This document shows, piece by piece, positions 13,787-28,298 of a stretch of 64,000 nucleotides of DNA. Within the stretch, counting starts at the first letter, position 1, and each line of letters opens with the position of its first letter. The position numbers were made by a program, and so were the translations under genes. The DNA lies in contig OZ024751.1 in assembly GCA_964016885.1 (NCBI GenBank), forward strand, positions 34,472,001-34,536,000, written 5' to 3'. The DNA is from Eledone cirrhosa (lineage: Eukaryota). The notes below the pieces were generated by a model, which made no database searches, had not been told where the DNA came from, and saw only the letters and a program-made list of their open reading frames with translations.

Positions 13787-13980
13787 AAAACAAAGGAAAT
13801 GTGGTAAGGAACCAGATGGACCATAACACACCAGAGTACTCAATACTTAGAGTAGTAGAGTGGGAAATAGGAAAAGGTATGACCCCGACGGCAAAGCTCA
13901 AGCCGTTTCGACGGCTATTTCTGGAGTCCAGAAATAGCCGTCGAAACGGCTTGAGCTCTGCCGTCGGGGTCATACTTTTT
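13787..13980 (-). mobile_element. Hairpin-capped element of about 200 bp in (TA)n, copy 1 (palindrome 13872-13980)
   Basis: Homologous to 24603-24806 and 28093-28298; (TA)n on both flanks. Confidence 0.85.
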
Positions 13981-14172
13981 CATATATATATATATATATA
14001 TATATATATATATATATATATATATATATATATATATATATATATATATATATTTATATATACATATATATACACACAGAGACACATACGCATACATACA
14101 TACATACATACATGCATACATACATACATACATACATACATACATACATACATACATACATACATACATACA

Positions 14173-14447
14173 TACAAGTACAATCCATTAATGGAACAGT
14201 AAAAATATGTAAAACATTGCAAAAATGTTGCATCTAATAACTGCATATACACATGTACTGATACAAAGCATATACACATGCACACATACAACTCAAAACA
14301 TACACATCCACACATACAATAACATGCATATCTACATATCTACCTAGTTGATGTTGTGTAAATTCCAATGAGAGAGTCTTGTATCTATGTTAGAAACCGA
14401 CTCTCTCTCTATTGGCAAAACTTTGTGAAATTATAAAACCAGAAGAA
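14173..14447 (+). mobile_element. Second, more truncated copy of the same R4/Dong-like 3' end in (CATA)n
   Basis: High identity to 6114-6414 with the same 3' junction. A diverged tail-only relative lies at about 7388-7545. Confidence 0.75.
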
Positions 14448-17400
14448 CATACATACATACATATATATATATATGTGTGTATATATATGTATATATATGT
14501 GTGTATATATATATGTGTATGTATATATGTATATATATATACACACGCATACATACATACATAAACAAATCTGTTACACTTATTGCATAGATTTTCTCTA
14601 CCTGTGTTTACACACGATCATATAAACATAGGTACATATTAGACAAATACTCATGCACACCACCAAACAGACGTACATATACACACCCGAAACAGACCTG
14701 TTTATGATGCACTGTAAACTGCATTTATTTGGTTACAAGCTAAGCCACTCACAGAGGATCAAATCTCCTCAGACCCCATGAAATAATATCATAAACTCAG
14801 TTTCTGCCATTTTCAAACTATTGGAGAAAGCAATAGAGGAAATGATCGTAAGATAAACAACTTAACCAACCGCTTTATTGGGCGAGATTTTATACGTATT
14901 TGCTGGCCTCTATTTTCTTTATTTTTTACTTTCTATCTCCGTCTCAGTTTTTTTTTATATATTAGCGTTCAGAAATCTGTTGATATTGTCAAAGATATAT
15001 TTGCTAATAATGTTTTTCCTGTTGTTCACAACAATATTACTGTTAGAGACGCTCCTACTCGTTGTTTTTCTTGCTGACGTTTCTTTTCTTTCTTGTGGTT
15101 TTTATTTTGTTTTGTTAGTTATATATCATATTTTCCTTTCATTGGCACTGTCTTGTCTTGTTGACATAGTTACATTTATAGTTCATCAGATATCGAATAC
15201 ATGTGTGCATTGGATATATATACATATGTGTGTGGGTGTATACACACACACACACACACACACACACACACATATATATATATATATATATATATATATA
15301 TATATATATATATATATCAGCTTGCGTATATGTACATACGTCATACATACAGTATAGGAAACGTGATGATACATTTCGCCATTAGCAACAACGAACTAGT
15401 CGGATGAGAAAATATCATTATCGCTTTCTTTCTCTGCCTATATATATATAAATGTGTGTGTGTATATATATATCTACACACATATATATATATATATATA
15501 TATATATATATATATGTGTGTGTGTGTGTATGTGTGTGTATGTGTATGTGTGTGTGTGTGTGTGTGTGTGTGTGTGTGTGTGTAAACACTTCTATATATA
15601 TATATATGTACTTAAGAAGTAAACCTTGCACTCTCTGGATATGTGGCTGTCGGGTCGATGTGATCAATGTAACTGATCAAAGGTATGAACTATATGATGT
15701 GGATGTATGTGAATTGCTGTATATAAATGTATACACGTGTGTATATATATATATATATATACTTATGTGTACATGGAGACTTCGAGAGCTTGCGCAACTT
15801 CTTATCGGAAATAAATATTTGACTATTGTGTGTGCTAAAGACAAATTATTAGCTGGGAATTCTTCAGCCAGCTTTTCATTTCCAGATAAAGCAATTTGAC
15901 CAATACATGTGTTCACACACATAAACAAAGAAGACAATGTACGGACACATAGGAATACGGATACACACACATGTATTCATATATGTATGAACAGCACACA
16001 CAGGCGTACGTAATTGTGTGAGTGTATTTATATGTATATGTACACACACACACACTCACACACTTACACACATTAATATATACATACATATATATATATA
16101 TATATATATATACCTAAACCGTAGCGCAAATATCTATTATAAAGGTGAAACCAGAAATTATTTGCTTACACTTTTAATCTCTGCCAATACTATATATATA
16201 TATATATAAATAGAGGAGCACTGTAATTGTTGAAAGTAGGACTACCTCACTGTAACAGAGGACTCAATACACTTTGTAACCGCCTCACAGTCTGCTCTAC
16301 ATCTATTCTAGCTTTCTCTAATACATATACTATCTTCTACTATGGTGTGAGTCTGTGACTGTTTATATGTATGTCTGTCTCTGTGTTTCTTTCTTTATAT
16401 ATATATATATATATATATATATATATATATATATATATATAATACTTCTGTATGTACATGTATTTATGATTGGAGATGTGATATAAACACACATAGAATC
16501 ACAGTGTGTCGGTCCGTTTACCATTTATAATACGAACGTGTATTCTATTCTTGCATTGGAAACTGTAATTCTGACTTGTCTTGCTACATTTCTATTCCAT
16601 CAATGACATCAGTTTGCTATTGATAATATATGAAAGAAACAACAACAACACCTACAAAATGTAATGTCGTCAGATTGCAAGACAAAAATAAAGTATATAG
16701 TCATTAGATTAATAGCTTGCAAAAGAAAACGTATGTTAGCAGCGCCAGTAGTCCATTAGACTGGAATTAGAAAAATCTATTCATTTTCAGAAGAAGGTTA
16801 TTTTAATCTAATCATTACTTGTTGTGAAGATAATTTACCTGGAAAAATAACAAAAGCAAAAGAAAAACAACAGAGCTGTTGGTAATCAGTAAAAAATTTC
16901 TTGAGTTTTACTGTCGTCTTTTCCGCCATAATCATCTGCCAGGTGTGATCGTCTGCTTCTTTCATATTGCTTCAATTCTTTTTCTTTTCTTGTCTTCGCG
17001 TGTGTGTGTGTGTGTGTGTTTTTAGTGTTTTTGTGTGTCTCTGCCGAATCGACGACTGTAAGAGAAAGAAAGAATGGGTGAAGAAAAAGAAAAGAATGAA
17101 TTAATCAATGAAATACTATGAGAGATAATGTAATGAAAGAAACGAGGAAAGATGAAACGTAAAGAAAGGACAACAACTGCAACGACATCTACAACACTAA
17201 CAACAAAAGAATTGACAGACCTTATAAAAAACACAAATGAAATCATTGAAAAAATAATAGTTTTCTGAGTGGAAAAAAATTGTAGAAGTATGAATGAAAA
17301 CTATTGGGCATTTCAGTTGAAGGAATGTCGCAAACGAATGGTAGACAGTTGTTGAGACATTTTTATTGATTGGGGTATTTCATTGGTACAGTTTCATTGG

Positions 17401-26494: not shown

Positions 26495-26544
26495 TTACCG
26501 TAAATCATATGATACTAGTATATGACACATACTTATAAAGTCAC

Positions 26545-27960
26545 ACACACACATATATAGTAATACACACATATAAAGTAATACACTCACATATACACAC
26601 ATATATATAGTAAAATATTCACATATATAGTAATACACTCACATATACACACATATACAGTAATACACTCACATATATAGTAATACACACATATATAGTA
26701 ATACACACATATACAGTAATACACTCACATATATAGTAATACACACATATACAGTAATACACTCACATATATATAGTAATACACTCACATATACAGTAAT
26801 ACACTCACATATATAGTAATACTCACATATATAGTAATACACTCACATATATAGTAATACACACATATATAATAATACACACATATATATAATAATACAC
26901 ACATATATATAGTAATATACTCACATATATATAGTAATACACTCACATATACAGTAATACACTCACATATATAGTAATACTCACATATATAGTAATACAC
27001 TCACATATATAGTAATACACACATATATAGTAATACACACACATATATAATAATACACACATATATATAGTAATATACTCACATATATATAGTAATACAC
27101 TCACATATACAGTAATACACTCACATATATAGTAATACTCACATATATAGTAATACACACACACATATATAGTAATACTCACATATATAGTAATACACTC
27201 ACATATATAGTAATACACACATATATAGTAATACACACACATATATAATAATACACACATATATATAGTAATATACTCACATATATATAGTAATACACTC
27301 ACATATACAGTAATACACTCACATATATAGTAATACACACACACATATATAGTAATACTCACATATACAGTAATACACACACATATACAGTAATACACTC
27401 ACATATATAGTAATACACTCACATATACAGTAATACACTCACATATACAGTAATACACACATATATATAGTAATACACACACATATATAGTAATACACTC
27501 ACATATACAGTAATACACTCACATATATAGTAATACAAACACATATATATAGTAATACACACATATACAGTAATACACACACATATATATAGTAATACAC
27601 ACATATATAGAAATACACTCACATATACAGTAATACATACACATATATAGTAATACACTCACATATACAGTAATACACACACATATATATAGTAATACAC
27701 ACATATATAGTAATACACTCACATATACAGTGATACACACACATATATAGTAATACTCACATATATAGTAATACACACATATATAGTAATACACACATAT
27801 ATATAGTAATACACACACATATATAGTAATACACACATATATAGTAATACACACACATATATAGTAATACACACACATATATAGTAATACACTCACATAT
27901 ATAGTAATACACACATAGATAGTAATACACACCTATACAGTAATACACACATATATACAC
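26545..27960. repeat. Minisatellite of 18-24-bp units, consensus about ATATATAGTAATACAC(T/A)CAC
   Basis: About 1.4 kb of tandem AGTAATAC cores separated by variable (CA)/(TA) runs. Confidence 0.95.
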
Positions 27961-28092
27961 ACCCATACATTCCTAGTGCACCTATACAAACAAAGTATTC
28001 ACCAGAAGCATGAAAATATATGCATGACTATCAAACAGTAATATATACACTCATATATATATATATATACACTCATATATATATATATATAT

Positions 28093-28298
28093 ATAGGAAC
28101 CAGTAAGACCCCGACAGCTGAGCTCAAGCCGTTTCGACGGCTAATTCTGGACTAATTTAGTCCAGAATTAGCCGTCGAAACGGCTTGAGCTCAGCTGTCG
28201 GGGTCTTACTGGTTCCTATTACCCACTCTACTACCCCAAGTATTGAGTACTTTGGTGCGTTATGGTCCACCTGGTTCCTTACCACATTTCCTTCGTTA
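28093..28298 (+). mobile_element. Hairpin-capped element, copy 3 (essentially perfect palindrome 28093-28219)
   Basis: As for copies 1 and 2. A diverged single-arm relative lies at about 42576-42700 (-). Confidence 0.85.

What the first reader, a model, noticed from the sequence alone, without database searches (positions are those of the whole stretch)
13787..28298. Hairpin-capped 200-bp element family: a fixed fold-back point and copy-specific variants mirrored in both arms
Seen: three copies (13787-13980, 24603-24806, 28093-28298), each flanked by (TA)n. All fold at nearly the same apex (tctgga-g-tccaga, tctggactaa-a-tttagttcaga, tctggactaa-t-ttagtccaga). Diagnostic variants occur in both arms of one copy and not in the others: gtatgacc/ggtcatac, gtaggacc/ggtcctac, gtaagacc/ggtcttac, and gacagc/gctgtc only in copy 3. 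Inference: the second arm is templated from the first at or near each insertion (snap-back synthesis from a defined end), or the arms are homogenised by conversion. This differs from a MITE, whose inverted repeats are terminal. No hammerhead core is visible, only an internal agccgt-cgaa-acggct hairpin.
Basis: partly seen in the sequence, partly recalled or inferred. Interest (0 to 1): 0.8.

Follow-up and report, generated by a model that had tools for sequence, protein, structure and literature searches.

The report
Folded-back Penelope-like retroelement tail ends
These 200-base hairpin repeats sitting in TA stretches are real and abundant, and are likely the folded-back tail ends left by a known class of jumping gene (Penelope-like elements), so they are mostly ordinary, though the fold appears to cut through a self-cleaving RNA motif.

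Summary
The three hairpin copies, their near-fixed apex, (TA)n flanks and mirrored variants are real. A fourth, old, unfolded copy lies at 42576-42699. Arms group by locus at 7 columns and by side at none. But 6 of those 7 columns are common family-wide polymorphisms in public reads, not private changes, and arms of one copy drift apart freely, so ongoing conversion is not needed.

Public data show an abundant family in several species, with both ends fixed, 5'-truncated unfolded copies and a non-mirror sequence upstream of the apex. The CUGANGA half was not found.

Four other families in the window show the same head-to-head-plus-tail form; three carry hammerhead-like cores, and a Neptune-type Penelope-like element (PLE) fragment is present. 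Head-to-head inverted pLTRs with a junction palindrome and a one-sided tail are described PLE features.

Verdict: likely a new high-copy member of a known kind, folded at insertion. The autonomous partner was not found. Interest is modest.

The parts
13787..13981 (-). Copy c1: short arm 13927-13981, apex 13926, paired long arm about 13871-13925, unpaired tail about 13787-13870; sense (apex to tail) on the - strand
   Evidence: (TA)n 29 nt left and 72 nt right
24603..24805 (+). Copy c2: short arm 24603-24662, zero-spacer palindromic apex at 24662/24663, paired long arm 24663-24722, tail 24723-24805; 5 arm mismatches
   Evidence: (TA)n 48 and 40 nt
28096..28297 (+). Copy c3: short arm 28096-28155, apex 28156, paired long arm 28157-28216, tail 28217-28297; perfect arms
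   Evidence: (TA)n 21 and 47 nt
28176..28203 (+). Predicted 3' half of a type I hammerhead in c3: C-GAAA at 28176-28180, stem III 28180-28185 with 28193-28198 around a palindromic loop, GTC triplet 28197-28199, GGGG 28200-28203 as putative stem I 3' strand
   Evidence: 5-6 bp stem in both arms of c1 and c3, shuffle p 0.002-0.014; broken in c2 and c4; T28196>C is the majority state and makes a G-C pair; no compensatory change
28216..28219 (+). Fixed short-arm end (TTC or TTCC joined to (TA)n); candidate second reverse-transcription start
   Evidence: all 3 copies; loose end at 28219 in 3442 X21 reads, 75 X1 contigs, 3 X5 contigs
28286..28297 (+). Fixed 3' end of the tail joined to (TA)n
   Evidence: all 3 copies and c4 in register; loose end at 28286 running into (TA)n in 1414 X21 reads and 95 X1 contigs
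42576..42699 (-). Copy c4: old, diverged, 5'-truncated, unfolded member with the same 3' register and a 43-nt (TA)n tail
   Evidence: (score 92 against shuffle mean 22; 0 of 300 shuffles as high)

Best explanation
The repeat is a head-to-head hairpin of about 60 bp with an 80-nt one-sided tail sitting in (TA)n, and it is likely a short, non-coding insertion made from the 3' terminal repeat (pLTR) of a Penelope-like retroelement. Inferred steps: a PLE GIY-YIG endonuclease cuts (TA)n. Reverse transcription starts at a fixed site (28297) and runs about 140 nt toward the 5' end. It stops in a natural imperfect hairpin, probably stem II of a type I hammerhead. The second arm is then made from the same template, either by snap-back on the short palindrome at the apex or by a second cDNA started at the other fixed site (28216) and joined head to head. 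That would give a near-fixed apex, a fixed short-arm end, subfamily variants mirrored in both arms, and loss of the CUGANGA half of the ribozyme. After insertion the arms mutate independently. Shown: anatomy, fixed ends, abundance, unfolded copies. Inferred: PLE origin, hammerhead identity, folding at insertion.
For: Anatomy matches published PLE insertions: inverted pLTR with palindrome at the junction, optional tail on one arm, self-priming proposed (PMC3846280, passages); inverted 5'-truncated copy, tail, (TA)n bias (PMC8557442, passages); two RT start sites that define the tail, just 3' of the hammerhead (PMC11167929, parts 1-2 of 4); hammerheads on opposite strands 100-700 bp apart (PMC4209133, passages). 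In the window, 4 other families form the same asymmetric TA-ended hairpins. Three of the 4 carry hammerhead-like cores pointing from apex outward, the same polarity as the GAAAC..GTC motif here. A Neptune-type RT-thumb/GIY-YIG fragment with a downstream hammerhead and (TA)n tail lies at 57290-59450. Reads and contigs show fixed 3' and short-arm ends, TA-flanked 5'-truncated unfolded copies (X4, X5), and a non-mirror upstream sequence in 56 + 36 X1 contigs and 1 X5 contig. That sequence is partly complementary to the long arm (CGGCTATTT with AAATAGCCG; GGCTAAA with TTTAGTC; read by eye). Four apex forms occur (c1, c2, c3; A28159>C in X21).
Against: No autonomous PLE ending in this sequence was found. 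The element has no significant similarity to the window's other PLE ends and no protein match in two open frames. CUGANGA was not seen upstream: loose ends are cut at 30 letters and 396 were not shown, and the outermost letters of the X1 consensus look more like the mirror than like a core. Stem III shows no compensatory change, is not the lowest-energy fold in c3, was picked after the fact, and at 5-6 bp is longer than the 1-2 bp usual in metazoan hammerheads. The tail (about 80 nt) is longer than the 30-40 nt described. Mirrored states are subfamily-level, and the c1 apex form recurs in organism B, which hairpin masters would also explain.
Confidence: 0.62

Rival explanations
1. The hairpin arose by fold-back only a few times. 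Several whole-hairpin master copies are then transcribed and re-inserted as a unit, a palindromic SINE-like passenger of PLE enzymes.
For: Apex, short-arm end and 3' end are all nearly fixed; the mirrored states are subfamily-level; the c1 apex form recurs in another species. No ORF-linked parent was found.
Against: At least four apex forms; unfolded copies with the same 3' end (c4; X4, X5 loose ends); a non-mirror upstream sequence in 92 X1 contigs; four unrelated families in the same 64 kb fold the same way. RT would have to read through a perfect 60-bp RNA duplex (inference).
Confidence: 0.25
2. One hairpin master, with the arms of each copy homogenised afterwards by intra-hairpin gene conversion or repair.
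For: c3 has perfect arms; arms group by locus.
Against: c2 keeps 5 and c1 keeps 2 unmirrored changes; the mirrored states are shared with many other copies rather than private.
Confidence: 0.05
3. A non-autonomous DNA transposon (MITE- or Helentron-like) that targets TA and has an internal hairpin.
For: Fixed length of about 200 bp, TA on both sides, high abundance.
Against: No terminal inverted repeats (best 7-8 of 20); 5'-truncated, 3'-anchored copies; hammerhead-half motif. Helentron features are recalled and were not tested.
Confidence: 0.05
4. An assembly or library fold-back artefact.
For: Perfect palindromes can be made by amplification or missed adapters (established knowledge); complex PLE ends trouble short-read assemblies.
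Against: Arms carry natural decay; the short-arm/(TA)n junction is in 3442 raw reads of another study and in organism C, and a mirrored arm is in organism B.
Confidence: 0.02

Closest known systems
Inverted pLTR plus tail insertions of EN+ Penelope-like elements (PMC3846280; PMC8557442 Fig. 2 legend)
   Same: Head-to-head inverted repeat, palindrome at the junction, extension on one arm only, AT/(TA)n targets, 5' truncation.
   Different: No ORF or second direct pLTR in any of the 4 window copies; tail about 80 nt rather than 30-40; the fold seems to fall inside the hammerhead; very abundant.
PAc/Poseidon of Anolis, two internal RT start sites (PMC11167929)
   Same: Two fixed ends just 3' of a hammerhead, joined to AT-rich target DNA; both target strands are extended in vitro.
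   Different: No ORF start identified in the tail here; partner protein unknown; head-to-head product not addressed in the parts read.
Non-LTR retrozymes and dispersed PLE hammerheads (bioRxiv 10.64898/2026.07.22.740005; PMC4209133)
   Same: Short, non-coding, dispersed, probably pLTR-derived; type I hammerhead geometry with palindromic loop 3.
   Different: Not tandem; no complete ribozyme; inverted rather than direct repeats.
LINE-1 twin-priming 5' inversions (recalled, no call)
   Same: An inversion formed during target-primed reverse transcription from two primed ends.
   Different: Twin priming inverts a 5' segment without duplicating it; here the inverted 60 nt duplicate the adjacent sequence.
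MITEs, including the palindromic 200-bp Harbinger of Xenopus (PMC5625713, passages)
   Same: Size, abundance, self-contained hairpin.
   Different: No terminal inverted repeats; asymmetric; truncation is polar.

Membership tests
EN+ Penelope-like element insertion | RT and GIY-YIG ORF in the element or in a parent sharing its pLTR | tested here: inconclusive
   No ORF in the 4 copies; no link to the window's PLE ends; protein searches blank; whole genome not held.
EN+ Penelope-like element insertion | Head-to-head inverted repeat with a palindrome at the junction | tested here: met
   compared with passages
EN+ Penelope-like element insertion | Tail extension on one arm, two fixed ends | tested here: met
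   3 of 3 copies and loose ends; length about 80 nt against 30-40 described
EN+ Penelope-like element insertion | 5' truncation with an anchored 3' end | tested here: met
   c4; TA-flanked truncated contigs in X4 and X5
EN+ Penelope-like element insertion | (TA)n or AT-rich target | tested here: met
   bias described for Naiad and Neptune
Type I hammerhead ribozyme | GAAA, stem III and NUH cleavage triplet | tested here: met
   4 of 7 arms, p 0.002-0.014; no covariation
Type I hammerhead ribozyme | CUGANGA core and stem I 5' strand | tested here: not met
   absent on both strands of c1-c3; not seen in the listed 30-letter loose ends. The inserted copies are not ribozymes; the parent was not seen.
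Type I hammerhead ribozyme | Self-cleavage | not testable with these tools
   needs in vitro transcription of an unfolded parent
Non-LTR retrozyme | Tandem units, each with a complete hammerhead | tested here: not met
   copies are single and inverted; definition
MITE | Terminal inverted repeats | tested here: not met
   best 7-8 of 20
MITE | Target-site duplication | tested here: inconclusive
   hidden by (TA)n on both sides
tRNA-derived SINE | Pol III A and B boxes or a tRNA head | tested here: not met
   strict recalled consensus not matched in c1-c3; ARAGORN 0

The most novel reading that the evidence does not exclude
The family is a self-propagating palindromic passenger of Penelope-like enzymes, born when reverse transcription folded back inside hammerhead stem II and removed the catalytic core. 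It has since spread as tens of thousands of self-contained 60-bp hairpins, making it a major built-in source of double-stranded RNA for A-to-I editing or small RNAs, and a mass record of how PLEs join two cDNAs head to head.
Probability: 0.2. Interest if true: 0.6.

Novelty: new member of a known kind. Interest (0 to 1): 0.33.

Why it matters
How PLEs make their tandem and inverted ends is stated as open (PMC8557442), and in vitro work explains the tail but not later steps (PMC11167929). A very abundant family with a fixed tail, a fixed short-arm end and a slightly jittering apex would let snap-back be told from two-cDNA joining by counting genomic copies. Self-folding repeats are strong A-to-I editing targets in frog (PMC5625713, passages), so these hairpins could matter if transcribed; that was not tested. 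As a class, the structure is already described.

Tried and rejected
Whole genome: not held, so no genome-wide arm tree.

Rfam: only simple-repeat miRNA noise among the 150 of 235 rows listed for the window; 0 hits on the long arm but also 0 on a positive-control hammerhead at 49600-49646, so Rfam is uninformative here.

Pattern scans: metagenomes 0 and 4 loci matching only the 20-21-mer; prokaryote genomes 0; viral contigs 1 and 0, the one hit a chance 20-mer in a phage-like contig.

Protein searches with two open frames of the element: none at E<=1; 2 unrelated repetitive proteins. Pfam did not recognise the GIY-YIG fragment or its full-length relatives; their RT and EN motifs were read by eye and labelled Neptune-type from recall.

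Folding: long arms alone fold no better than shuffles (z -0.72 to 0.56). The second helix was mis-registered by one column and is ignored. The c1 tail comparison was also out of register and is ignored.

Tail motifs shared by eye with other families were not significant. The non-mirror upstream motif is not in the window.

X21 molecule ends at 28154 and 28166 fall on AATT words and are read as restriction cuts, not biology; they stop these reads from spanning the apex. No RNA holder listed. The idea that the apex is simply the RNA 5' end was weakened by the non-mirror upstream sequence.

Literature: searches listed no paper describing this family (most judged by title and abstract start only; subscription papers, Repbase and Dfam were not searchable; supplements were not read and may list it).

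Full report
Observation. Oriented apex to tail, each is a short arm of 55-60 nt, an apex with a 0-1 nt spacer, and a long arm of about 140 nt whose last 80 nt are unpaired. Pure (TA)n of 21-72 nt flanks both sides. BLAST found a fourth, diverged, unfolded copy at 42576-42699 with the same 3' register. A census found 7 fold-backs in the window and none in three shuffles. The window is microsatellite-rich animal-type DNA of about 26-45% GC per 2 kb. Its look recalls octopus genomes, which is memory and was not tested.

Arm test. Seven alignment columns are shared by both arms of one copy and differ between copies; none groups by side except the junction column. Within a copy the arms differ at 2 (c1), 5 (c2) and 0 (c3) sites, and 3 of c2's 5 are CpG-type. 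So the arms started identical and then decayed independently, which makes ongoing conversion unnecessary.

Family-wide data. Words of c3 occur in 14 of 23 listed runs from 10 studies and organisms A-J; 6 runs hold half or more. I laid 4 runs; X1 may be the window's own source. X1 gave 17,771 contigs and a summed depth near 3.8 million on the tail, against 6-22 for the eight X1 records listed. The tool warns this is no copy number, so I say only that the family is very abundant. Six of the 7 mirrored columns are common polymorphisms there, so they mark subfamilies, not single copies. The short-arm end is fixed (3442 X21 reads, 75 X1 contigs, 3 X5 contigs run into (TA)n at 28219), as is the 3' end (1414 reads at 28286). 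For scale, X21 depth just beyond 28219 is about 13,000; RAD bias makes that ratio rough. A mirrored arm with the c1 apex form occurs in organism B. TA-flanked truncated copies without a hairpin occur in organisms B and C. Before the apex, 56 + 36 X1 contigs and one X5 contig carry a consistent non-mirror sequence that is partly complementary to the long arm (read by eye). The template therefore likely extends past the apex as a natural imperfect hairpin.

Hammerhead. Reading away from the apex, the long arm has C-GAAA, a 5-6 bp stem III around a palindromic loop, GTC and GGGG. This is met in 4 of 7 arms, with 0.2-1.4% of shuffles as good. The majority base at 28196 turns a G-U pair into G-C. 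The 3' strand of the imperfect hairpin runs straight into GAAAC, which is stem II geometry. Against this: no compensatory change, a competing hairpin wins in c3, the motif was chosen after the fact, and CUGANGA is absent from the copies and not visible in the clipped loose ends. Rfam missed even a positive control.

Context. A descriptor found 5 complete type I hammerhead sites in the window against 0-1 per shuffle. The four other fold-back families (11525-11658, 47020-47588, 49111-49532, 59695-59978) each have one arm ending at (TA)n and the other running on as a tail. Three have hammerhead-like cores pointing away from the apex; in 11525-11658 the apex lies directly at the 5' edge of the core. 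A PLE 3' fragment with RT-thumb and GIY-YIG similarity (49% over 136 aa to a 727-aa RT-EN protein), a hammerhead and a (TA)n tail lies at 57290-59450. The element shares no significant sequence with these, so the link is by anatomy only.

Comparison with what is known. Inverted head-to-head pLTRs with junction palindromes, an optional tail and a self-priming model are in PMC3846280 (passages). Inverted truncated copies, 30-40 bp tails and (TA)n bias are in PMC8557442 (passages). Two RT start sites bounding the tail, downstream of the hammerhead, with hammerhead cleavage dispensable, are in PMC11167929 (parts 1-2 of 4). Opposite-strand hammerhead pairs are in PMC4209133 (passages). I also saw part 1 of 5 and passages of the retrozyme preprint and passages of PMC8969392, PMC8967140 and PMC5625713. 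Two earlier AI notes on another genome reached a similar reading; they are not evidence.

Mechanism. Most likely a PLE enzyme cuts (TA)n, copies about 140 nt of pLTR RNA from a fixed start, stalls in the stem-II-like hairpin, and the second arm is made from the same template by snap-back or by a second cDNA from the other fixed start. The short-arm end lies at the first TAT of the long arm, which fits annealing after snap-back. In c1 and c2 the join is TTC to ATAT, one base short of that homology, which fits a second start. I cannot separate the two. Whole-hairpin masters remain the main rival (0.25).

Verdict. A real, abundant, probably PLE-derived fold-back family: a new member of a known kind. 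The open points worth following are the fold inside a probable ribozyme, the long tail and the missing partner. Interest 0.33.

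Noticed in passing
window 57290-59450 (-): 5'-truncated Neptune-type PLE 3' fragment: RT-thumb and GIY-YIG ORF with an Asn-rich insert in the linker, long repetitive 3' UTR, hammerhead at 57387-57333, (TA)n at both ends.
   Followed up: partly
window 33197-33474 (+): Partial tandem of the same pLTR (98% to 57290-57454), two units separated by (TA)n, complete hammerhead at 33377-33431.
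   Followed up: partly
window 11525-11722: Fold-back whose 6-nt spacer is the stem I 5' strand directly before CTGAAGA; a second case of folding at the hammerhead.
   Followed up: partly
window 46915-47588: 570-bp fold-back with about 105-nt tail; variant hammerhead-like cores in both arms.
   Followed up: partly
window 48966-49532: 414-bp fold-back with 30-nt spacer, about 148-nt tail and CTGATGA hammerheads in both arms.
   Followed up: partly
window 49545-50190 (-): Another probable PLE 3' end: hammerhead with an 11-bp stem II at 49646-49600 and a decayed, duplicated coding remnant that resembles an endonuclease C terminus by eye.
   Followed up: partly
window 59528-59978: 284-bp zero-spacer fold-back with about 166-nt tail and no hammerhead found; separated by (TA)n from the PLE ORF fragment.
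   Followed up: no
window 41692-42328 and 28750-29107: LINE-like C-terminal fragment (RTE-like by recall) followed by C2H2 zinc fingers; second partial copy at 90%.
   Followed up: no
window 344-524, 5449-5640, 11816-12010, 28541-28645, 45063-45220, 46357-46514, 55368-55590: Dispersed SINE-like family of about 190 bp, 82-94% identity.
   Followed up: no
window 30474-31073 (+): 199-aa open frame of Ala/Arg/Ser/Thr-rich repeats with a weak STPR hit (E 0.008).
   Followed up: no
window 44190-46730: Near-identical tandem duplication of about 1.3 kb (99.4-99.8%); recent duplication or assembly haplotype.
   Followed up: no
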